From a virus (Duplodnaviria > Caudoviricetes): a DNA stretch of 64,000 nt. Below are positions 319 to 24,700 of the stretch, piece after piece (the stretch's first letter is position 1; each line of letters begins with the position of its first letter). The DNA is taken from positions 1-64,000 of IMG/VR virus record IMGVR_UViG_3300032038_000041; one strand, written 5' to 3'. The translations under genes and the position numbers were made by a program. A model generated the notes under the pieces. It was not told the DNA's origin. It was given only the letters and a program-made list of their open reading frames with translations, and ran no database searches.

Positions 319-357
319 TAGAAAATTAAAGGGAGAAATTAATCTCCCATTTTATTT

Positions 358-1437
358 CTAACAAAATACATTCTCATCATAATATCCCTTTTTCAAGGCT
401 TGTATGAAAAACTGTATATCTTTAATTGACATTGGTGTAAAATTATTAGCATCAACGCCTACATCAATTCCCCAGCGTTTAATTTTCTGTCTTCCATGAA
501 TATGACCAAATAATCCATAAGATCCATTAGTTCCAAGTAAAGGATTAAGATTCCTTAAATACTCTGGTTCATGATTAAAGATTAACTCAGCACTGAGATC
601 ATGGTATTCAGATTCAATATCATTATCCGGCTCTAGTTTAAAATGCCCAAACTCTTTATACCCAATAATATCTTTGAATCCAATACGTATCATAGATTCT
701 TTGAATTCATCGAAAGACTTCCAATGAAGATCTATTTCTCTTTTTTCATAATTTCCACACTGAAGAATTATATTACCATTAAGATATCGTAACCAATCTC
801 TTTCACCAAAATCTCCTAAATGGTAAACAATATCTTCTGGCCTTACTACCTCATTCCATCTTTCAACCATCGTCCAATTCATATCTTCCGTACTAATGAA
901 TGGTCTTTTACTAAGAGTAAGTGCTCTTTGTGATTGAAAGTGCGTATCTGAAGTAAAGAAAGTTTTAGGTGCCATTTTATGATGATTAACCCACACATTA
1001 AGAGCTTTTAAGCAATCATCTAGTGTAGTAAATACCTTAGGGACCCCATATTTTTTAGCTTTATATTCCATATACCGTCTTGTATGGACCTCAGGATCAA
1101 TACCTAAGATAATTCGCTTCCCTCTAACTAGGTTCTCCATTAGCTCAATTTTAGTAGTTTGAGCATAATCTCGTCCTTTAATTTTTTGAATTTCTTTAGG
1201 AACCCAAAATAAGATTAGATCACTCATTCTAAGCGCTTTGGTTTCCCATTCAACTTGCTCTTCCCATACAAAAGATTCTCCTAATTCACCACTTCTTTTA
1301 GGATTAAGAAATTCTATACCTTCTATTTCAGGAATAGTACTTTGCCAATCAGGTGCTCCTTGTATTGGCCCTGCCAGGAATACATATGTTTTATCTTTCT
1401 TTACTCCTGGTACATGCTGTTCAATTGCTCTTATCAT
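358..1437 (-). CDS. Nucleoside 2-deoxyribosyltransferase-like domain fused to calcineurin-like metallophosphoesterase
   Basis: N-term VFLAGPIQGAPDWQ...QVEWE...SDLILFW; C-term SDTHF, LGDF, GNYE, HEP, GHIH motifs. Confidence 0.75.
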   Translation of the reverse strand: MIRAIEQHVPGVKKDKTYVFLAGPIQGAPDWQSTIPEIEGIEFLNPKRSGELGESFVWEEQVEWETKALRMSDLILFWVPKEIQKIKGRDYAQTTKIELMENLVRGKRIILGIDPEVHTRRYMEYKAKKYGVPKVFTTLDDCLKALNVWVNHHKMAPKTFFTSDTHFQSQRALTLSKRPFISTEDMNWTMVERWNEVVRPEDIVYHLGDFGERDWLRYLNGNIILQCGNYEKREIDLHWKSFDEFKESMIRIGFKDIIGYKEFGHFKLEPDNDIESEYHDLSAELIFNHEPEYLRNLNPLLGTNGSYGLFGHIHGRQKIKRWGIDVGVDANNFTPMSIKDIQFFIQALKKGYYDENVFC

Positions 1438-1446
1438 AATTTATAT

Positions 1447-1671
1447 TTAAAAAGGTAATGGTATCTCATCTATTATTTGTGCATATTTAGTTTTGTATAT
1501 AATATAACCTTCTCCCAATTTAGTTGTTCGATTAGTAGGCATTACTGATTTAATAACATATCTCTTTCTATGAGCTGTTATTATATCTACAACTCTTTTT
1601 TCATTATATGCCCATATTAAGAATGGATAAGTATTTCCATTATCTAGGATTGCTTTAAAGTATCTCAACAA
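1447..1671 (-). CDS. Hypothetical protein
   Basis: 74 aa ORF tightly packed in minus-strand operon. Confidence 0.5.
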   Translation of the reverse strand: MLRYFKAILDNGNTYPFLIWAYNEKRVVDIITAHRKRYVIKSVMPTNRTTKLGEGYIIYKTKYAQIIDEIPLPF

Positions 1672-2027
1672 AGTGTATCTAATTGAACAAATACTAGATT
1701 ATTTTCTATCCAAAACTTTAAATTCAAATAAGAATCCATAATTTCTTCTGGCCATTCTTTGTTAATATAAACCATTTCAAATTTCTCATCCATCATAGAT
1801 TTTGTAATTCTCTTCTTTCCCTTCCAAATACTCATATCATTTTCCCACTTTCGTATTTTTCCTATATTTAAAAGAGATAAAAGCGCTTTAGGAGGATTCT
1901 GAAGAGGATTAACTGATAATAGAAATCCTCTCGTAGGTTCATTATTAATACCACGAATAAGCCAGATATACTTATATTTTGAATTTTCTCTTAATAAAAA
2001 CGTAGGCAGTAAGTCCTTAGTTGTCAT
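1665..2027 (-). CDS. Hypothetical protein (probable start MTTKDLL)
   Basis: ORF track 1665..2072; ATG at 2027 avoids a long overlap with the upstream gene. Confidence 0.55.
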   Translation of the reverse strand: MTTKDLLPTFLLRENSKYKYIWLIRGINNEPTRGFLLSVNPLQNPPKALLSLLNIGKIRKWENDMSIWKGKKRITKSMMDEKFEMVYINKEWPEEIMDSYLNLKFWIENNLVFVQLDTLC

Positions 2028-2490
2028 AGAACCCTGCCTTTTTAAACATGTGATCCATCTTAGTCCAATCAACGTGACTTAATCTAGCAACATGCTTCTC
2101 TCCTGTTGCATAGGAAGTATAAGTTACTAGATTAGATTTAAGAGGAGTACCCATCGCCATATCATCAATTAAGATATCAGCTAATAGCTTTCGCGATGTA
2201 CCTGTTCCAGTATTTTCTTCTCCTTCAAATCCATTTACACCTTTAAGTGGGATTCCATTATCTTCAAACCAATTAATAGCTTCTTGAAGACTGCTAATTT
2301 CTCTCAATTTGCCATTAATATAGTTAAAAGGATTATCAGAAGATTCATTACGGCAAGTCCATAAAACAATATCATGTCCTGCGTTTACTAGTTTCTTAAG
2401 TACATGTGCAGCTCCCGTATCGTATAAAGTACTTCCACTTTCCGGAAGTTTTGGAACTACAGTACCATCAAAATCACATAATATAATCAT
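2017..2490 (-). CDS. HAD-superfamily hydrolase (BT0820-like)
   Basis: MIILCDFDGTVV motif I, LWTCR, ADILIDD motif IV. Confidence 0.8.
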   Translation of the reverse strand: MIILCDFDGTVVPKLPESGSTLYDTGAAHVLKKLVNAGHDIVLWTCRNESSDNPFNYINGKLREISSLQEAINWFEDNGIPLKGVNGFEGEENTGTGTSRKLLADILIDDMAMGTPLKSNLVTYTSYATGEKHVARLSHVDWTKMDHMFKKAGFYDN

Positions 2491-3590
2491 ATCCTTCCAA
2501 ATCTAATATTCTTCTTAAATTCTTCCCAATTCTTGGCTGCTGCGAGAGTGAACCCGTAAGATACACAACTTTGAAATTCCTCTACCCACTCTTGAATTGA
2601 ACAATCTACATCAATCCAGGTCCAGGCTGAATCACTAACTTTTATAGTCGGATTATGCTTTTTCCACTCTTCTGGATCTTTATAACCTGCTCTAAGAGAT
2701 TGAATCTCAATAGTTGTATTTCCATGATAAGCTCTACAAAAGCCGTTAGCTCTTGCTTGATATCCACCAGTTCCATAATACTGCTCTTGATTAGAAACTT
2801 CTACAGTCTCATATTCTCCAGTATTAGGATTTCTATTTTTTTGATATAAAGTTCCTTCGGCTTCAATTATTCTGGCGAAATCTTTACCAATCATAACATA
2901 ATCAGCACCAAGAGCCATTGCTTTTAAGACATCAGCAGGACTTTCAATACCCCCATCTGCAATAATCTTTACAGGCCTAAGACCAACACCTCCAGTAGCT
3001 TTAAACTTAGTCATATCCATTAAAAGAGATGCCATTGGATAATGAAATCCATATTTCGCTTTATCTACTAAAGATCCTGAACTAATACCAACCCTTATAT
3101 AATCAAACCCTGCCTTACTGTAATCTGAATAGGTTTCAACATTACCCACATTTCCACCCATTATGATTACCTGAGGGCCATATAATTTCTTTAGTTCAAA
3201 ACATAATTGAAGGAGGTTAGTATCATGTCCATTTCCACAATCAATACAAATATGAAGTTTTGGACCTAATCGCCTCTGATCAACATTCAAAAAGTTTCTT
3301 TGAATTTCACTGATACTAAAAGCAGAGAATATCCAAGGACAATATTGAAGTCTTAATTCTAAAGATTCAGTTCTTGGTATTACTGGTCTTATCCCATAAT
3401 CTTGCCATATTTTACAGCTATTTTCGCCAACAACGGCTTCCATTGGGCTAGTGAAGATTGGAAGTGTATCTGTTATTCCACTATCATCCAATTCATCCTT
3501 AACTGTAAAACAGGCCTTACTCCCTAGTGAACCATTATTAGTTCTAGCTGGAAGCAATGTAATATCATCTAATTCTAAAAGTCTTTCCAT
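2487..3590 (-). CDS. IMP dehydrogenase / GMP reductase family protein
   Basis: LDDITLLP, IDCGNGH, GGNVG, IRVGISSGS, IIADGGI, ALGADYVMIG; the usual catalytic Cys after GxGS appears replaced. Confidence 0.8.
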   Translation of the reverse strand: MERLLELDDITLLPARTNNGSLGSKACFTVKDELDDSGITDTLPIFTSPMEAVVGENSCKIWQDYGIRPVIPRTESLELRLQYCPWIFSAFSISEIQRNFLNVDQRRLGPKLHICIDCGNGHDTNLLQLCFELKKLYGPQVIIMGGNVGNVETYSDYSKAGFDYIRVGISSGSLVDKAKYGFHYPMASLLMDMTKFKATGGVGLRPVKIIADGGIESPADVLKAMALGADYVMIGKDFARIIEAEGTLYQKNRNPNTGEYETVEVSNQEQYYGTGGYQARANGFCRAYHGNTTIEIQSLRAGYKDPEEWKKHNPTIKVSDSAWTWIDVDCSIQEWVEEFQSCVSYGFTLAAAKNWEEFKKNIRFGRI

Positions 3591-3855
3591 AATACTTTCA
3601 TTATTAATTTCATATTCAAGAATAAGGAAAAAGAAGGCATAATTATTTACGTTCCACCAACTTAATTATATTTGTAGTATCACTATCTTCTTCTATACGG
3701 TCGAGCTTAATTTCTCTCGGCATCTTATTAATTAAATTAATTTCTATCTCTTTAATTATTTTACAACATTCTTCAAATTTCTTTAATAATTTTGTCATAC
3801 ACGCGTAAAGATTTCAAAATCTTATATATGTGAATAAAATTTTTAAAAAACAACT

Positions 3856-4326
3856 ATGAGTTTATTAAAAATAAAAAGAATAAGTGTATTGACTCCTAAA
3901 GGAGAGCGAATTCTTTCGTTTATGCCTATAGATGAACAATTACTTAATGAACAAGAGTTTACACCTTGTGATAAGCAATGTCCTTATGGCCCAGAACTTT
4001 GTGATAAAATAAAAGATCCAAGAGATCCAACTAATCCTAAAAAATGTTTTGGAGATTGGTGTGCAAATCTTGGAAATAATGAAGGAGATCAACCTGAGTA
4101 TGCAAATTGTGTACCTATTGAAGGAACAATTGAGGAAAACCTAGGAGATATACAAGATATACATCAGACGCTGATTGAGAAAGATCCTCTTGTTAAATTA
4201 ACAAAGGTTATTGATAATGTTTGTGATGGATATTGTGATATGTATGAACAAACACATTCTCAATGCAATTCCAGTAATAAGCTGTGTATCTTAAGAAAAT
4301 TATTTAAAAATAATAAGAATGATTGA
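3856..4326 (+). CDS. Cys-rich hypothetical protein
   Basis: 156 aa, multiple Cys clusters, promoter motif at 3813-3830. Confidence 0.6.
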   Translation: MSLLKIKRISVLTPKGERILSFMPIDEQLLNEQEFTPCDKQCPYGPELCDKIKDPRDPTNPKKCFGDWCANLGNNEGDQPEYANCVPIEGTIEENLGDIQDIHQTLIEKDPLVKLTKVIDNVCDGYCDMYEQTHSQCNSSNKLCILRKLFKNNKND

Positions 4327-5203
4327 AGATGATAATAAAATATATATTCCACCGGATTATTCACAAGAAGAGGTAAGTTATGATTCAGACTTTGATGACG
4401 ATGAGGATGATCCTGCAGATTATGAATTTCCAGATGATGACGAAAATGACGTCGAGGAAGAAGAATTATCTAAACAACAAGAACAATTAAATGAGAAACA
4501 AATGAGTGTACAATCGCCTTTTGGACAAACTCCTCAATGGGGTACGCCCAGCCAACAAACAACTCCTTGGGGAACATCAAATCCCTCAGGACAACAAACA
4601 TTCCCTTGGCAAACTCAAAGACCAGCTGCTCCTGTAACTCCACAATATTCCTGGCAATTACCAGGACAACAACAGCAGCCAGCAGGGCCTAATGTACAAG
4701 GACCTACACAAGCAATTAGAATTGATAGACCAAAACAGATAGTCATAATTGATGTATTCGATGGACTTATTGAATCTTTGGCAAGTGAGGGTCAACCTAA
4801 TATTCCACCAAGAGCAGTTTATGACATTAAACTAAAATTTGATGTTTGGGGTGCTTTAAGGAGTTTTAGCCCTCAAGTAGTTTATGCAATTTTCCCAGCT
4901 CTTACAACAGACGCAGAGGGAAAGAAAGCATGGCAAGCTGCTATTAAGTATCTAACTTATAGCTTAAGCTCTTATTTGCAAATTCCTGAATATAACTGTA
5001 TTATCATTAAACAAATGGTATTCGGTCAACCAAAAGAAGTTATTATAAAGGCTATTGCAGATAAACTAAATGATAAAAAATCAGCTGTATATGTTGGAGT
5101 AAATAGTGGTTATTGGGGACTTGGAAATGGAGATCTTCTTGCAGCTAAACACTGTCAGATAGATTATGCAGATATATTTCAATTAATTAAAGGAGAAATT
5201 TAG
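4319..5203 (+). CDS. Acidic/QP-rich N-terminus plus degenerate HAD-IIIA-like domain
   Basis: D/E tract, repeated xxPWG/PWQ, IVIIDVFDGL and VYVG...GDLLAAKHCQIDY. Confidence 0.5.
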   Translation: MIEDDNKIYIPPDYSQEEVSYDSDFDDDEDDPADYEFPDDDENDVEEEELSKQQEQLNEKQMSVQSPFGQTPQWGTPSQQTTPWGTSNPSGQQTFPWQTQRPAAPVTPQYSWQLPGQQQQPAGPNVQGPTQAIRIDRPKQIVIIDVFDGLIESLASEGQPNIPPRAVYDIKLKFDVWGALRSFSPQVVYAIFPALTTDAEGKKAWQAAIKYLTYSLSSYLQIPEYNCIIIKQMVFGQPKEVIIKAIADKLNDKKSAVYVGVNSGYWGLGNGDLLAAKHCQIDYADIFQLIKGEI

Positions 5204-5207
5204 AATT

Positions 5208-6359
5208 ATGGATCAAAAATGGATTATTGATAGTGGTGTATTTTATCCAATTCCTGGAGATACTACACTACACTTATCACCGGGACCTGGAGTATTTCAA
5301 TTTTATAAAAACCCAGATCCAAGAGATGGAAGACTAGGTCTAAAGAGAATTAGTGATGATTTCAAGTTTGATTTTAAAATCTATGACTTGGGAAGTGAAA
5401 AAATCATTGATACAATTGAAAAGACTTGGAATTCAGACTATTATGTAAAAACTGGAAGAAACCTTGGCGTGATTTTTAATGGAATCAAGGGAACAGGGAA
5501 AACAATCTCTGCAAAAATTCTATGTAATAGAATGAAACTTCCTGTAGTAATTATTCCATACTGTGTTCCTGGTATTCAAGACTTCTTACAGGCCCTTGAA
5601 TTTGAGTGTGTAATTCTTATCGATGAGGCTGAGAAAACATTTAAGTCTAATATCAATAGCGAAATAGATTCTGATGAGATTCTTCTTAAGTTAATTGATG
5701 GAGTTTATAATAAGGCACGTAAATTGTATGTCCTTACAACAAATAAGCTAACAATTAACGAAAATCTCCTAGGACGACCTGGGCGAATTCGCTATATCCA
5801 ACAGTTTGGAAATCTTACAGAAAAGGCCGTTCATGAATTTATTGATGATAATCTTCTTTACCCAGAAAAGAAGAATGATATCTTAAAAGCTGTAGACCTT
5901 CTTGAGATCTCAACAATTGATATCCTTCGCTCAATGGTAGATGAGGTTAATATTCATCAAGAACTTCCTGAAGATTCTGCACTGAACGTACCTAAAGCAA
6001 ATCATATCTTCCGCATTCTTCGATTCCCGGAGCTTGAGTGTGAAGTACTTGAGAAAGTAAGAGAACTAATTGTTCCTCTCGTAAAAGAAGGAAAATTACT
6101 TACATGGCTCAAAGAAAAACGTGAAGGTTATGACGGTACTAATTCAGAGTGGATATATGATGAGTATGGTGGCTATGAAACCAAACTTACTTGTCAGTTC
6201 TCTAGTCTTTGGAAAGGTATGGGAACTAATTATGGAGAGATACTGGAAGAACCTGGAATTGATGGCTTCTTTACAGTAAGTGGATCATATGGCGAACCAT
6301 GTACTTGTGTTATGCTGTATAAAAAATCAGATCCTAGTTTATATAGAAATGCACTTTAG
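5208..6359 (+). CDS. AAA+ ATPase
   Basis: Walker A GIKGTGKT, Walker B ILIDEAEK, LTTN, RPGRIRY. Confidence 0.85.
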   Translation: MDQKWIIDSGVFYPIPGDTTLHLSPGPGVFQFYKNPDPRDGRLGLKRISDDFKFDFKIYDLGSEKIIDTIEKTWNSDYYVKTGRNLGVIFNGIKGTGKTISAKILCNRMKLPVVIIPYCVPGIQDFLQALEFECVILIDEAEKTFKSNINSEIDSDEILLKLIDGVYNKARKLYVLTTNKLTINENLLGRPGRIRYIQQFGNLTEKAVHEFIDDNLLYPEKKNDILKAVDLLEISTIDILRSMVDEVNIHQELPEDSALNVPKANHIFRILRFPELECEVLEKVRELIVPLVKEGKLLTWLKEKREGYDGTNSEWIYDEYGGYETKLTCQFSSLWKGMGTNYGEILEEPGIDGFFTVSGSYGEPCTCVMLYKKSDPSLYRNAL

Positions 6360-6366
6360 GAGTATT

Positions 6367-6397
6367 ATAGAGAGGGTAATATCCTTCTCTATTTTTT
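6367..6397 (+). terminator. Intrinsic terminator
   Basis: ATAGAGAGGG-TAATAT-CCTTCTCTAT followed by T-run. Confidence 0.75.
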
Positions 6398-6473
6398 GTT
6401 TCGTTAAGAGGATCTGACATATAATAAAAAGAAGGGAGAGTAATTTTTCCTCTTTCTTTTCCTTATATTTGTT

Positions 6474-13553: not shown

Positions 13554-14048
13554 TTAATCTCCTTTATTCTTTTTAGCTAATGCTTTAAGTTTATTACTAA
13601 TCATTCTTTTCCTAAAAGATGATATTTTATCAATAAATAATACTCCATCTAAGTGATCCACCTCGTGCTGTAATATTCTAGCTTTCATACCATCAAGCTC
13701 TACTTCAACATGGTTCCAATCAGGATAAGTATCATACTCTAGTTTTATTCTCTTAGGCCTATCTACTGATTCATAGATTCCTGGGATACTTAAACAACCC
13801 TCATACATCGAACAAGTCTCTTCACTAGTTTCAGTTATGTATGGATTCAAAAATACATCTTCATCCTTCTGACCAATTATTACTATAGATTTATTAAAAC
13901 CAACTTGAGGTGCTGCTAATCCAACTCCTCCCTTTGAAGCAGCTAGAGTTTTTCTCATAGTTTCTAGGATAGAGATTAGCTCTGCCTGACCTTGTATTAC
14001 ATCTTCAGACTCTTGTCGAAGAATTTTTTGTCCATAATATTTTATCAT
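13554..14048 (-). CDS. def: Peptide deformylase
   Basis: GVGLAAPQVG, EGCLS, QHEVDHLDG. Confidence 0.95.
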   Translation of the reverse strand: MIKYYGQKILRQESEDVIQGQAELISILETMRKTLAASKGGVGLAAPQVGFNKSIVIIGQKDEDVFLNPYITETSEETCSMYEGCLSIPGIYESVDRPKRIKLEYDTYPDWNHVEVELDGMKARILQHEVDHLDGVLFIDKISSFRKRMISNKLKALAKKNKGD

Positions 14049-14305
14049 CTTGTCTCTATAAATATAACTTTTCCTTCAAGAGCTCCCCATTCAGAACTCT
14101 CTTTGAAAACTTTTGTTTTAGGCTCATACTCTGATTCCATTGGCTCAGTCAAGTACTATAAAGAAGTTTCCTTCCACGTAGCTTCTATTAATTTCTGACC
14201 TGGATCAAGTTTAATCGTTGTTGTTCCTCCAAAATTTCTTGCAAATTTCTGATCACACGATGTTATTGCAAAACATAACATTAATACTATTAATATCTTT
14301 TTCAT
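14045..14305 (-). CDS. Phage lipoprotein, 86 codons with one internal TAG (14156-14158)
   Basis: MKKILIVLMLCFAITSCDQKFARNFGG...ATWKETSL*YLTEPM...EGKVIFIETR; lipobox; terminal TGA overlaps def ATG; promoter motif at 14308-14320. Confidence 0.75.
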
Positions 14306-20966: not shown

Positions 20967-21037
20967 ACGACACTATAAAATTAAAATTACCAAATAAAAT
21001 TAGAAAGACATTCTTATATGTCTTCCATTTTCTTACG

Positions 21038-21109
21038 TGATCCTAGAGGAACTCGAATCCCCACAAATTGGTTTTAGAGACCAACGCATTACCTTTCTGC
21101 CATAGGACC
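21038..21109 (-). tRNA. Amber suppressor tRNA (CTA)
   Basis: GGTCCTA/TAGGATC; TTGGT-CTCTAAA-ACCAA; GGGGA-TTCGAGT-TCCTC; own promoter motif at 21119-21131. Confidence 0.9.
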
Positions 21110-21151: not shown

Positions 21152-21442
21152 TCACAAAGATACCAACTTTAAGTGTTTAAATAATTTTTCATTTCCTAAG
21201 ATAGCCAAAGCTGTTGTTTGTCCTCCTAAATCAGGCTCTTGAAATGATGTGTAATCAATCCCAAGATTCCCGAGTTTATAAGACCATTTTTCAACATTAC
21301 CTTTTAGATAGATAAGATAATTATTATTCCACTGTTGTTCTGGATGATCGAGTAACCATTGAGCTACTACATGACCCCCTTGAACACAGCTATAGATTGG
21401 CTCTAATGTATCACTGACTATTACATATAATCTACTATCCAT
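21152..21442 (-). CDS. Pth2-like (PTH2/PTRHD1 fold) peptidyl-tRNA hydrolase
   Basis: LYVIV..L....VQGGH, FQEPDLGGQTTALA. Confidence 0.65.
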   Translation of the reverse strand: MDSRLYVIVSDTLEPIYSCVQGGHVVAQWLLDHPEQQWNNNYLIYLKGNVEKWSYKLGNLGIDYTSFQEPDLGGQTTALAILGNEKLFKHLKLVSL

Positions 21443-21444
21443 TA

Positions 21445-21942
21445 TTACCATCTTTTAAATATAAGTTCAAGATTTCCGTTAAAATAAGACTTGTAAGATT
21501 TGATCCAATACATAGCCTCATACCAAAGTCTAGTTTCTTCGAAAATATAATCGTCAGGTAATGATTCATCTAAGATATTACTTTTATAGTACTTACACTG
21601 ATTTGGCCTCTTATAAGTTTCACTAAAATAAGCTTTCATTTCTTCAGAGGTTTTAAAATCAAAGCTCCTGGTATGAGTCTTATAATAACACTCTAATAAA
21701 TAATCCTCGAAACTATGAATTCCTCGATTTTCCCAATAGAGTTTTGAGTGTCTCACCCATCTGTACAAAGTGTATAATTTGTCTAACTCTGATGAACGAT
21801 TTTTAATCTCTTCACAAAGTTTCCAATCATCACCATGACCTTTTCTTGCTTTCTTACCATCTTTTTGAGCTTGTGCCTTAATCTGAATTCTATCATAGAT
21901 TTTGGCTGCTATCTCTTTCATAAGTTTAATGTTCGTCTCCAT
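21445..21942 (-). CDS. Hypothetical protein (probable start METNIK)
   Basis: ORF track 21445..22059; ATG at 21942 follows an AT-rich leader. Confidence 0.6.
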   Translation of the reverse strand: METNIKLMKEIAAKIYDRIQIKAQAQKDGKKARKGHGDDWKLCEEIKNRSSELDKLYTLYRWVRHSKLYWENRGIHSFEDYLLECYYKTHTRSFDFKTSEEMKAYFSETYKRPNQCKYYKSNILDESLPDDYIFEETRLWYEAMYWIKSYKSYFNGNLELIFKRW

Positions 21943-22004
21943 AATAGTTAATAATATTTTAATGTTATACCAATTCATATTCGTTGTCGCGTCTGAGTTG
22001 GATA

Positions 22005-22049
22005 TTAACTTGGAGCTCGAACTCGGAACTACCACTTCTGTTTCTTCAT
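22005..22049 (-). other. Candidate leader mini-ORF MKKQKW(TAG)FRVRAPS
   Basis: ATG overlaps TGA of upstream gene (ATGA); internal TAG at 22029-22031; ends TAA. Confidence 0.45.
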
Positions 22050-22663
22050 TGTTTACCAAATTTTAAACTGTTAGTATCAAGTCCAAGCGATCTACGTTTT
22101 GTTTGTATAATTGCTTTTACTTGAGCTGGAATGTAATTATAAAGTAAGATAACCTTACGACACTCTTCTTGATATTCTTTCCAATTATCGCAAGTAATCT
22201 GATCTTTATAATCTAAATTTTCAATTGAACGATCCGCAATCTTCCTGTCTGAACAATATTGTTTTTTATTTACGTCACCTATAAGATTCCGCTTTCCTAA
22301 AACAAATCTTGTAACAGAGTTTGGATCATTCTCCGTAAACTTAAAATTAAGTGCTGAATTAAGAGCAATATACATATTAGTATATTTTCTCGTTTGCTTG
22401 AAAAAACGCCAAGGTTCAATAAATGTAGTAGTTAAAATCTTAGATTTATATCTAGTATTTTTCATACTATCAACATCTCTGAATAATGGCATAACTTCTT
22501 CAATGAGTTTGTTCATGTCGGAAATAACTGCTTTTACAACACGTTCATCTTTAAGTTCACATAGTAATTCTTCAAATCGATCAATGCAGGATGACTGCTC
22601 TGCATTCTTCCTAATAACTGTCATTAACGATCTGACAGATTCTTGATTTACTAAATTTGACAT
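22046..22663 (-). CDS. Hypothetical protein
   Basis: 205 aa ORF. Confidence 0.65.
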   Translation of the reverse strand: MSNLVNQESVRSLMTVIRKNAEQSSCIDRFEELLCELKDERVVKAVISDMNKLIEEVMPLFRDVDSMKNTRYKSKILTTTFIEPWRFFKQTRKYTNMYIALNSALNFKFTENDPNSVTRFVLGKRNLIGDVNKKQYCSDRKIADRSIENLDYKDQITCDNWKEYQEECRKVILLYNYIPAQVKAIIQTKRRSLGLDTNSLKFGKQ

Positions 22664-24627: not shown

Positions 24628-24700
24628 TGGATAAGGATGAAATCAAATCACGTTAGTGAGATTTTCAGTCTCATGCATACACCACGTCTGCCACTTATCC
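24628..24700 (-). tRNA. tRNA-Phe(GAA), copy 1
   Basis: TGAGA-CTGAAAA-TCTCA. Confidence 0.85.

What the first reader, a model, noticed from the sequence alone, without database searches (positions are those of the whole stretch)
21038..21109. Amber suppressor tRNA with a Trp-type anticodon arm in a non-recoded region: candidate selective UAG-to-Trp read-through system
Seen: a canonical CUA tRNA with its own promoter motif. Its arm GGT-CTCTAAA-ACC is one base from the typical bacterial tRNA-Trp arm GGT-CTCCAAA-ACC. All long genes read in code 11 and several end in TAG (358, 5203, 6359, 30035), yet two small ORFs have an internal TAG (14156, 22029). Established: gut phages are known to recode TAG as Gln. 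Inference: here TAG is a conditional sense codon, possibly Trp, used as a switch. The acceptor stem with A73 does not establish the amino acid, and Gln remains possible.
Basis: partly seen in the sequence, partly recalled or inferred. Interest (0 to 1): 0.85.

Follow-up and report, generated by a model that had tools for sequence, protein, structure and literature searches.

The report
Amber-suppressor tRNA cassette, rumen jumbo phage
A giant rumen phage that otherwise uses the normal genetic code carries a well-conserved UAG-reading tRNA. It sits directly behind a small peptidyl-tRNA-hydrolase-like gene, a pairing found in many unrelated phages, and nothing supports the idea that UAG is read as tryptophan.

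Summary
The CUA-anticodon tRNA at 21037-21109 (-) is real. It is the best-scoring of 14 tRNAs, is unchanged or near-identical in seven strain contigs, and one strain shows a compensatory stem change.

The Trp reading is not supported. The "Trp arm" occurs in over 100 different phage amber suppressors and in a relative's tRNA-Ser. The tRNA has A73 and U35, whereas the tRNA-Trp of a Bacteroidales genome has G73 and C35. Isotype models give no Trp signal outside the anticodon arm. The amino acid remains unknown; Gln is the best guess.

The window is about 25% of a roughly 374-kb jumbo phage. I read 178 kb of this species, including 19 kb of late and lysis genes on a strain contig that carries the identical tRNA. 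All of it reads in code 11, with no in-frame TAG in the late genes.

The lipoprotein TAG does sit at a near-invariant Trp. It is, however, a private TGG-to-TAG change: an otherwise identical protein on five other contigs has W there.

New here: the gene 42 nt upstream has a PTH2 (peptidyl-tRNA hydrolase 2) fold. In 64 of 77 tRNA-bearing phage loci that encode a homologue of it, the nearest tRNA is a CUA suppressor. This scan has already met that cassette on other DNA, in at least 79 genomes. I found no description of it in the papers I searched.

The parts
21037..21109 (-). tRNA with anticodon CUA (amber suppressor), class I, A73, G2:U71
   Evidence: ARAGORN. Rfam gives 61.9 bits. It is 100% identical in strains L120, L236 and L492. 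L493 has a compensatory G29:C41 to A29:U41 change.
21003..21026 (-). Terminator-like hairpin followed by a T-run, 11 nt after the tRNA
   Evidence: Contigs of RNA-library run X1 cover 21046 to beyond 21500, and depth in that run falls to about zero downstream, while DNA runs continue. This is a weak hint only.
21152..21442 (-). PTH2-fold (peptidyl-tRNA hydrolase 2-like) gene of 96 aa; its stop codon lies 42 nt upstream of the tRNA
   Evidence: AlphaFold2 pLDDT 95.5. Foldseek top hits are Pth2 structures 3erj, 2zv3, 1q7s and 1xty. phrog_3668, E 2e-6. 14 of 42 relatives hit PF01981. In 64 of 77 homologue loci that hold any tRNA, the nearest tRNA is a CUA tRNA.
21445..22059 (-). Upstream co-oriented gene of unknown function (204 aa from the TTG start; gene callers aa)
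   Evidence: ORF list and gene calls in the strain contigs. No family hit.
22005..22049 (-). 14-codon mini-ORF, MKKQKW-TAG-FRVRAPS-TAA, with TAG at 22029-22031; its ATG overlaps the stop of the gene upstream
   Evidence: Sequence. Conserved, TAG included, in 8 strain contigs with one substitution. Its significance is not shown.
22046..22663 (-). First gene of the co-oriented block (205 aa, unknown function)
14045..14305 (-). Small lipoprotein gene (DUF7015-like) with an in-frame TAG at codon 50 (14156-14158); not part of the cassette, but cited in the finding
   Evidence: W stands at this column in 25 of 26 homologues. P0244 is identical apart from W.

Best explanation
The tRNA is a working amber (UAG) suppressor. 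It belongs to a two-gene cassette, a PTH2-fold hydrolase gene followed by the suppressor tRNA, carried by a rumen jumbo phage of about 374 kb. The host is probably a Bacteroidales bacterium, and the phage otherwise uses the standard code.

Shown:
- The tRNA is kept under structural selection.
- The cassette recurs in many unrelated phages.
- 178 kb of this species, including late and lysis genes, read in code 11.

Inferred:
- The block is transcribed from upstream and ends at the hairpin behind the tRNA.
- A host synthetase charges the tRNA. Gln is most likely, because U35 and C34 are kept and A73 matches Bacteroidales tRNA-Gln, but Tyr, Leu or another amino acid is not excluded.
- The tRNA gives partial read-through of UAG rather than reassigning the codon.
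- The PTH2-like enzyme deals with the tRNA-linked by-products of read-through, such as peptidyl-tRNA released from ribosomes that ran past a stop.

On this reading the phage is at the 'suppressor acquired, genome not yet recoded' stage proposed by Borges et al. The private TGG-to-TAG change in the lipoprotein gene is the kind of nonsense change such a genome can tolerate.
For: tRNA quality and selection:
-. It is identical in three strain contigs while the flanks vary, and L493 has a compensatory A29:U41 pair.

Cassette:
- 14 of 115 loci picked only for a CUA tRNA hold a homologue of the 96-aa protein.
- Reciprocally, 69 of the 80 best homologue loci hold a suppressor tRNA within 5 kb. CUA is the nearest tRNA in 64 of the 77 loci that hold any tRNA, although CUA makes up only a small minority of the tRNAs in those loci (67 genes).
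- In 39 of 53 protein clusters (about 80% identity), the first same-strand tRNA within 500 nt downstream is a suppressor: CUA in 37, UCA in 2.
- PTH2 fold and family.
- The protein has no homologue in the suppressor-less relatives G002, G004 and G005.

Standard code:
- Own contig: coding density 0.862 in code 11 against 0.874 with TAG as sense; 16 of 115 ORFs stop at TAG.
- Strain contig k141, which holds the identical tRNA: 84 kb at 0.914 against 0.909. Twelve late-block genes, including a 2,676-aa ORF and an Amidase_3 endolysin, have 0 in-frame TAG.

Other:
- Bacteroidales tRNA-Gln has A73, U8-G9 and a short D loop, as this tRNA does.
- Literature: suppressor tRNAs occur in standard-code relatives of recoded phages, and only TAG-to-Gln and TGA-to-Trp have been seen in phages (10.1101/2021.08.26.457843).
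- Rescue and recycling genes nearby: Pth and def, PrfH.
Against: - No expression or charging data exist. One RNA-library contig covers the block, but DNA carry-over cannot be excluded.
- About 195 kb of the genome, including capsid, portal and terminase genes, were not seen, so recoded genes could still exist.
- The amino acid is unresolved. Core-only isotype HMMs are ambiguous (Thr 14.1, Asn 13.4, Gln 11.9, Tyr 10.0 bits; cross-validation accuracy 65%). The tRNA also lacks the U1:A72, G2:C71 and G3:C70 of tRNA-Gln.
- TAG ends 14% of the phage's own genes, including topoisomerase II, so strong suppression should be costly.
- The role given to the PTH2-like protein is inference only.
- Two clade relatives (L407, L453) keep the protein without a suppressor tRNA.
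- One strain contig (L494) has AUA in place of CUA.
Confidence: 0.6

Rival explanations
1. Ordinary code-15 phage. TAG is reassigned, probably to Gln, in late genes that lie in the roughly 195 kb of the genome not seen here. The window would be the standard-code early and replication part that carries the suppressor tRNA.
For: - Known recoded phages, including the Lak phages of Prevotella, keep replication genes in standard code and recode structural and lysis genes.
- The window holds replication, transcription and translation genes only.
- Lak phages hold a 36-40% homologue of the PTH2-like protein.
- Some homologous cassettes sit in phages with in-frame TAGs.
Against: - 19 kb of the late block on a strain contig with the identical tRNA hold 12 genes, about 6,400 codons, including the endolysin and a 2,676-aa protein. 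They have 0 in-frame TAG and are 98.6% coding in code 11. Lysis and structural genes are where recoding is concentrated in known cases.
- Three complete or near-complete clade relatives are fully code 11.
- TAG is a frequent stop: 16 of 115 and 13 of 95 ORFs.
Confidence: 0.13
2. One reading: a selective UAG-to-Trp read-through system, in which the tRNA is charged with Trp and a few genes carry TAG at Trp positions.
For: - The anticodon arm and T loop match Bacteroidales tRNA-Trp apart from C35 to U.
- The one in-frame TAG in a conserved gene sits at a near-invariant Trp.
- 19% of 180 phage suppressor tRNAs were given a Trp isotype by a published model (PMC10879173).
Against: - The tRNA has A73 where the Bacteroidales tRNA-Trp has G73, G1:C72 where it has A1:U72, and a different D arm.
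- From general knowledge, C35 and G73 are the main marks for bacterial TrpRS, and the E. coli tRNA-Trp-derived amber suppressor su7 inserts mainly Gln.
- The arm is shared by 100 diverse suppressors. Only 3 of 99 have a Trp-like body once the arm is masked.
- Strain L493 changes the GGU/ACC stem to AGU/ACU.
- The TAG is a private TGG-to-TAG transition. From general knowledge, this is among the commonest single-base routes to a TAG codon, so it does not argue for Trp decoding.
- No phage TrpRS was seen, though I ran no dedicated search for one.
Confidence: 0.07
3. The tRNA does not act in decoding. It would be a decoy for host anticodon nucleases, a processing signal, or a relic.
For: - No client gene with in-frame TAG was found in this phage.
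- One strain contig has AUA at the anticodon.
- Relatives L407 and L453 keep the PTH2-like gene without the tRNA.
Against: - The cloverleaf is perfect, it has the top Rfam score of the contig's tRNAs, the full anticodon loop is conserved, and there is a compensatory stem change.
- In related cassettes, the anticodon (CUA or UCA) goes with in-frame TAG or TGA inside the PTH2-like gene. That only makes sense if the tRNA decodes.
Confidence: 0.08

Closest known systems
Phage-encoded suppressor tRNAs of stop-codon-recoded gut phages (code 15: crAss-like and Lak phages; Borges et al., preprint 10.1101/2021.08.26.457843; Peters et al., PMC9523058)
   Same: A phage-borne CUA tRNA lies among tRNA and replication genes that read in standard code. 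The host is probably Bacteroidales. GC content is low.
   Different: Here no gene needs TAG as sense in 178 kb, late and lysis genes included, and TAG ends about 14% of genes.
Standard-code phages that carry a suppressor tRNA (relatives of the Agate phages in Borges et al.)
   Same: A suppressor tRNA without recoding, read there as the first step towards recoding.
   Different: Their case was a TGA suppressor, and no linked protein gene was described. Here the tRNA is a UAG suppressor tied to a PTH2-like gene.
Archaeal and eukaryotic peptidyl-tRNA hydrolase 2 (Pfam PF01981; PDB 3erj, 2zv3, 1q7s Bit1, 1xty)
   Same: The neighbouring gene's product has the same fold (Foldseek probability 1.0, TM 0.66-0.74), and 14 of 42 relatives match the Pfam model.
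   Different: It is shorter (96 aa). This protein itself does not reach the Pfam model. Its conserved residues are Q21, H24, E69, D71 and T77. It is phage-borne and linked to a suppressor tRNA. No activity is known.
E. coli su7 (supU), the amber suppressor derived from tRNA-Trp (recalled from general knowledge, not checked here)
   Same: A Trp-type anticodon arm carrying CUA.
   Different: su7 keeps the whole tRNA-Trp body and G73, and it still inserts mainly Gln. The phage tRNA shares only the arm.
Amber-gated Pth2-like plus suppressor tRNA cassettes noted earlier in this scan (e.g. e1-933198, e1-5668975)
   Same: The same protein family lies next to a CUA tRNA on the same strand, in large phages.
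   Different: Those cassettes carry an in-frame TAG near the start of the hydrolase gene. Here the gene has a plain ATG start and no in-frame TAG.

Membership tests
Amber-suppressor tRNA (functional tRNA gene with CUA anticodon) | Canonical cloverleaf that scores as a tRNA | tested here: met
   RF00005 gives 61.9 bits against a gathering score of 29. ARAGORN also calls it.
Amber-suppressor tRNA (functional tRNA gene with CUA anticodon) | Kept under selection, shown by conservation and compensatory change | tested here: met
   73 of 73 positions are identical in L120, L236 and L492 while the flanks vary. L493 has G29:C41 changed to A29:U41.
Amber-suppressor tRNA (functional tRNA gene with CUA anticodon) | Transcribed, processed and aminoacylated | not testable with these tools
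   The only evidence is contigs from one RNA library that cover the block.
Genetic code 15 (TAG-recoded) phage | Coding density rises when TAG is read as sense | tested here: not met
   0.862 against 0.874 on the contig. 0.914 against 0.909 on 84 kb of the strain contig.
Genetic code 15 (TAG-recoded) phage | In-frame TAG in structural and lysis genes | tested here: not met
   0 in 12 late-block genes, including the endolysin and a 2,676-aa protein. Capsid, portal and terminase genes were not seen.
tRNA-Trp-derived suppressor (TAG read as Trp) | The tRNA-Trp marks G73, A1:U72 and C35 | tested here: not met
   The tRNA has A73, G1:C72 and U35. The Bacteroidales tRNA-Trp has G73, A1:U72 and C35.
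tRNA-Trp-derived suppressor (TAG read as Trp) | The body outside the anticodon arm resembles tRNA-Trp | tested here: not met
   With the arm masked, Trp is absent from the top scores.
tRNA-Gln-type suppressor (TAG read as Gln) | Features of Bacteroidales tRNA-Gln: A73, U8-G9, short D loop, U35 | tested here: met
   Alignment A3.
tRNA-Gln-type suppressor (TAG read as Gln) | U1:A72, G2:C71 and G3:C70, and a body that classifies as Gln | tested here: inconclusive
   The tRNA has G1:C72, G2:U71 and U3:A70. Gln scores best among class I models only (12.7-13.2 bits). It ranks third once all isotypes are included.
PTH2 peptidyl-tRNA hydrolase family (neighbouring gene) | PTH2 fold | tested here: met
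   AlphaFold2 pLDDT 95.5. Foldseek hits to Pth2 structures at E 1e-4 to 6e-3 and probability 1.0.
PTH2 peptidyl-tRNA hydrolase family (neighbouring gene) | Match to Pfam PF01981 and to the catalytic residues | tested here: inconclusive
   This protein has no Pfam hit. 14 of 42 relatives hit PF01981, best E 1.2e-10. The catalytic residues were not mapped.
Pth2-like plus suppressor tRNA cassette | Hydrolase gene and suppressor tRNA adjacent on one strand | tested here: met
   The gap is 42 nt here. The layout holds in 39 of 53 protein clusters.
Pth2-like plus suppressor tRNA cassette | An in-frame stop in the hydrolase gene that matches the anticodon ('gating') | tested here: not met
   The gene here has an ATG start and no in-frame TAG. 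Among its nearest homologues, a minority have an early or inner stop.

The most novel reading that the evidence does not exclude
The PTH2-like gene plus suppressor tRNA is a self-contained, mobile 'stop-codon read-through' cassette that moves between unrelated phages and is the entry point to stop-codon recoding. This phage would show the earliest stage: cassette present, genome still in standard code, and a first tolerated in-frame TAG (lipoprotein W50). The hydrolase would be what makes carrying a suppressor affordable, by clearing the tRNA-linked products of unwanted read-through.
Probability: 0.3. Interest if true: 0.75.

Novelty: new variant of a known kind. Interest (0 to 1): 0.55.

Why it matters
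Phage suppressor tRNAs are usually explained by late-gene recoding. Here a conserved suppressor sits in a phage whose late and lysis genes, as far as seen, do not need it. It comes with a conserved protein partner that the main papers on phage recoding do not mention (no occurrence of the term).

If the PTH2-like enzyme is what makes suppression tolerable or controllable, that would explain how phages can acquire suppressor tRNAs before any recoding. It would also give a simple two-gene system to test. For annotation, the result is a warning: a 'Trp-like' anticodon arm, or a single TAG at a Trp codon, is not evidence for a new genetic code.

Tried and rejected
- An exact 19-nt arm pattern found nothing in IMG/VR. 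A looser loop-plus-T-loop pattern over 22 clade relatives gave only chance hits and a repeated motif in G008.
- BLAST of the tRNA against GenBank phages and five Bacteroidales genomes gave nothing useful.
- ENA records cannot be searched whole, so I walked contig k141_3374822 with 12 exact-protein look-ups. The 373,550-bp contig of this species could not be fetched.
- The residue tally at in-frame TAGs across 195 suppressor-bearing loci was too noisy to use. Many aligned 'ORFs' were non-coding frames of DNA-level homologues (majority residues K 12, Q 10, E 5, W 3 of 45 site clusters).
- The candidate in-frame TAG at L366:11067-11942 was rejected, because the true start lies after the TAG. The split RNA-ligase ORFs are in different frames, not joined by a TAG.
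- Contigs laid from four public runs did not cover position 14157 well enough to judge the SNP.
- Other 'AUA' tRNAs in phage loci are unrelated to the suppressors.

Full report
**1. The observation**

ARAGORN finds 13 tRNAs in the window, all on the minus strand. One of them has anticodon CTA, at 21037-21109. Rfam's tRNA model gives it 61.9 bits, the highest score of the 14 tRNAs on the contig.

The cloverleaf reads GGUCCUA-UG-GCAG-AAAGGUAA-UGC-G-UUGGU-CUCUAAA-ACCAA-UUUGU-GGGGA-UUCGAGU-UCCUC-UAGGAUC-A. It has G1:C72, a G2:U71 wobble pair, A73 and a 5-nt variable loop.

The tRNA is followed after 11 nt by a terminator-like hairpin at 21026-21003. No sigma-70-type promoter lies in the 42-nt spacer before it, and that spacer carries indels in one strain. 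The 'own promoter' is therefore not confirmed.

**2. What the DNA is**

The window is the first 64 kb of a 94,411-bp linear IMG/VR virus record that CheckV rates 25% complete. A close strain exists as a 373,550-bp contig.

The contig encodes multisubunit RNA polymerase pieces, topoisomerase II, a Lon-like protease, SbcC, NrdD, GroEL and a ligase, and no structural gene. Its RNA polymerase subunit has hundreds of relatives on contigs of 240-400 kb.

The best bacterial matches of its GroEL are all Bacteroidales, many of them from rumen MAGs. Public runs from 14 studies, mostly bovine gut, hold the stretch.

**3. Is TAG recoded?**

On the 94-kb contig, coding density is 0.862 in code 11 and 0.874 with TAG as sense. 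This gain is no larger than the one from reading TAA as sense (0.891). TAG ends 16 of 115 ORFs.

Three complete or near-complete clade relatives are fully code 11 and have no suppressor tRNA: G002 at 353 kb, G004 at 367 kb and G005 at 401 kb.

Because the contig lacks late genes, I walked along the ENA contig k141_3374822 (209,749 bp). It carries an identical PTH2-like gene and an identical CUA tRNA. Its record positions 94,086-178,016 were merged without conflict. Over that stretch coding density is 0.914 in code 11 against 0.909, with stops TAA 61, TGA 21 and TAG 13.

At 159-178 kb the walk reached the end of the late block, which is syntenic with G002 337.6-342.4 kb. It holds twelve tightly packed genes, including a 2,676-aa protein and an Amidase_3 endolysin. 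They are 98.6% coding in code 11, have no in-frame TAG in about 6,400 codons, and none of them ends in TAG.

So in 178 kb of roughly 374 kb, including the gene classes that are most recoded in known cases, this species uses the standard code. Capsid, portal and terminase genes were not seen.

**4. The two 'internal TAG' ORFs**

ORF 14045-14305 (-) is a small lipoprotein gene of a large conserved family; 226 homologues passed E 0.001. The TAG at codon 50 aligns with W in 25 of 26 homologues and with L in one.

However, protein P0244, on five ENA contigs, is identical to this ORF at every other residue and has W there. The 49-aa truncated product is on record for this contig only. Strains L120 and L236, at about 95% nucleotide identity and with the same tRNA, show no other stop-related codon differences. 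This is a private TGG-to-TAG transition. It does not tell which amino acid the tRNA inserts.

The second case is a 14-codon frame at 22005-22049 whose ATG overlaps the stop of the upstream gene. It is conserved, TAG included, in eight strain contigs. Nothing shows that it is translated.

**5. Which amino acid?**

The arm GGU-CUCUAAA-ACC is one base from the tRNA-Trp arm of Xylanibacter ruminicola. The same arm with CUA occurs on more than 115 IMG/VR contigs, in 100 distinct tRNAs. Their discriminator is A in 48, G in 32, U in 15 and C in 6, and their bodies differ widely. With another anticodon, the arm also occurs in a relative's tRNA-Ser(UGA). The loop context C32-U33...A37-A38 is common to host tRNAs that read U-starting codons.

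In the Bacteroidales genome, tRNA-Trp has G73, A1:U72 and U8-A9. tRNA-Gln has A73, U8-G9 and a short D loop, AAUGGUAA. The phage tRNA has A73, U8-G9 and AAAGGUAA.

- Among class I types, Gln scored first, at 13.2 bits with the anticodon masked and 12.7 bits with the whole arm masked. Trp scored 10.5 bits, and only while the arm was included.
- A larger core-only model that includes Leu, Ser and Tyr was ambiguous: Thr 14.1, Asn 13.4, Gln 11.9, Phe 10.9 and Tyr 10.0 bits. Trp was not among the top eight. Cross-validation accuracy was only 65%.

The suppressors linked to the PTH2-like gene form a series from class II forms, with long variable arms, to class I forms. Most have G1:C72 and A73.

My reading is that Trp is unlikely. 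From general knowledge, C35 and G73 are main marks for bacterial TrpRS, and both are missing. Gln is the best single guess, given U35, the Bacteroidales-type A73 and the published record that phages reassign TAG only to Gln. The identity is not settled. A published isotype model labelled 19% of 180 phage suppressor tRNAs as Trp, so a 'Trp-like' phage suppressor is not a new observation either.

**6. The cassette**

The ORF 42 nt upstream (21152-21442, 96 aa) drew attention because 14 of the 115 loci that had been fetched only for their CUA tRNA encode a homologue, mostly adjacent to the tRNA.

The reciprocal search used an alignment of these proteins and returned 364 relatives in IMG/VR. Among the best 80 loci:
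- 69 hold a suppressor tRNA within 5 kb.
- In 64 of the 77 loci with any tRNA, the nearest tRNA is CUA, on the same strand and usually 4-450 nt downstream. CUA makes up only a small minority of all tRNAs in these loci (67 genes).

After clustering the protein at about 80% identity, 39 of 53 clusters have a suppressor as the first same-strand tRNA within 500 nt downstream: CUA in 37 and UCA in 2.

The protein has no homologue in the suppressor-less relatives G002, G004 and G005. Two other clade relatives do keep it without the tRNA.

AlphaFold2 models the protein at pLDDT 95.5. Foldseek's top hits are archaeal and human Pth2 structures. Fourteen of 42 relatives match Pfam PTH2. The invariant residues are Q21, H24, E69 and T77.

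In part of the family, the hydrolase gene itself carries an in-frame TAG, or a TGA in loci that also hold a UCA tRNA. Here it does not.

Earlier notes of this scan describe the same pairing in at least 79 other genomes, usually with an early TAG in the hydrolase gene. I reached it independently before reading those notes, and I confirm the linkage but not the gating for this phage. The phage-recoding papers that I searched do not mention a peptidyl-tRNA hydrolase.

**7. How it most likely works**

Shown:
- The tRNA is conserved and structurally constrained.
- The gene order hydrolase-then-tRNA is conserved, with a terminator after the tRNA.
- The surrounding genome is in standard code.

Weak hint: in one rumen RNA library, contigs cover the block from beyond 21500 down to 21046. 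Depth in that run falls to about zero downstream, while DNA runs continue.

Inferred: the block is co-transcribed. The tRNA is charged by a host enzyme and gives partial UAG read-through. The PTH2-like enzyme handles tRNA-linked by-products.

The phage is rich in translation and rescue genes: IF3, YqeY, Pth, def and, on the strain contig, PrfH, Thg1 and an IF1-like gene.

This matches the 'suppressor first, recoding later' path of Borges et al..

**8. Verdict**

The UAG-to-Trp reading does not. The tRNA itself is a known kind of element. What lifts the finding above ordinary is the conserved PTH2-like partner, together with the fact that this copy sits in a phage whose late genes, as far as seen, do not use TAG as sense.

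Noticed in passing
window 24628-24700 (-): Rfam finds a further tRNA (41.5 bits) that ARAGORN misses.
   Followed up: no
window ~340-6400: This segment lies in the opposite orientation in strain contig NODE_29 (L236). In strain contig k141 (L364) it has the same orientation as in the window. It is either an invertible segment or an assembly difference.
   Followed up: partly
L364:16161-16775 (strain contig, about 5 kb beyond the window's left end): A phage-encoded PrfH (release factor H; TIGR03072, 214 bits, above the family cut-off). The 360-aa gene next to it is not recognisable as RtcB.
   Followed up: partly
L487-L490 (strain contig k141, record 125-160 kb): Further translation-related and unusual genes: Thg1-like, IF1-like (eIF-1a), FtsH-like, TelA, and ABC-transporter parts. 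An RNA ligase is split into two overlapping 116-aa ORFs in different frames (L489:18560-19247).
   Followed up: no
L494:1208-1280 (Logan strain contig): The same tRNA carries anticodon AUA instead of CUA, plus a G26-to-A change. This is either a natural loss or change of suppressor function, or a contig error.
   Followed up: partly
L412, L413, L416, L427, L438, L441, L442, L445, L447, L448, L452, L466: Many suppressor tRNAs linked to the PTH2-like gene have the loop CCCUAAA, that is C33 in place of the near-universal U33. The linked suppressors also range from class II (long variable arm) to class I.
   Followed up: no
L098-L119 (IMG/VR relative G008): Fourteen plus-strand copies of a 28-nt motif, TTCTAAATTTAATGGAGATATTTCAAAT. 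It is probably a phage promoter or other regulatory signal.
   Followed up: no
L019-L069 (RNA polymerase loci of relatives): In many relatives the roughly 1,050-aa RNA polymerase subunit gene spans 3.9-4.5 kb and matches in pieces. It is therefore interrupted, by introns or inteins.
   Followed up: no
G000 69.2-70.2 kb and 75.6-76.8 kb (L009): Two runs of small overlapping ORFs (65-98 aa) nearly all end in TAG: four in a row in the first run and three in the second.
   Followed up: no
G000 91.2-94.4 kb (L010): Polymerase-like ORF fragments with TTG 'starts' are separated by a 290-aa ORF. This looks like a gene split by an intron or intein that carries an endonuclease.
   Followed up: no
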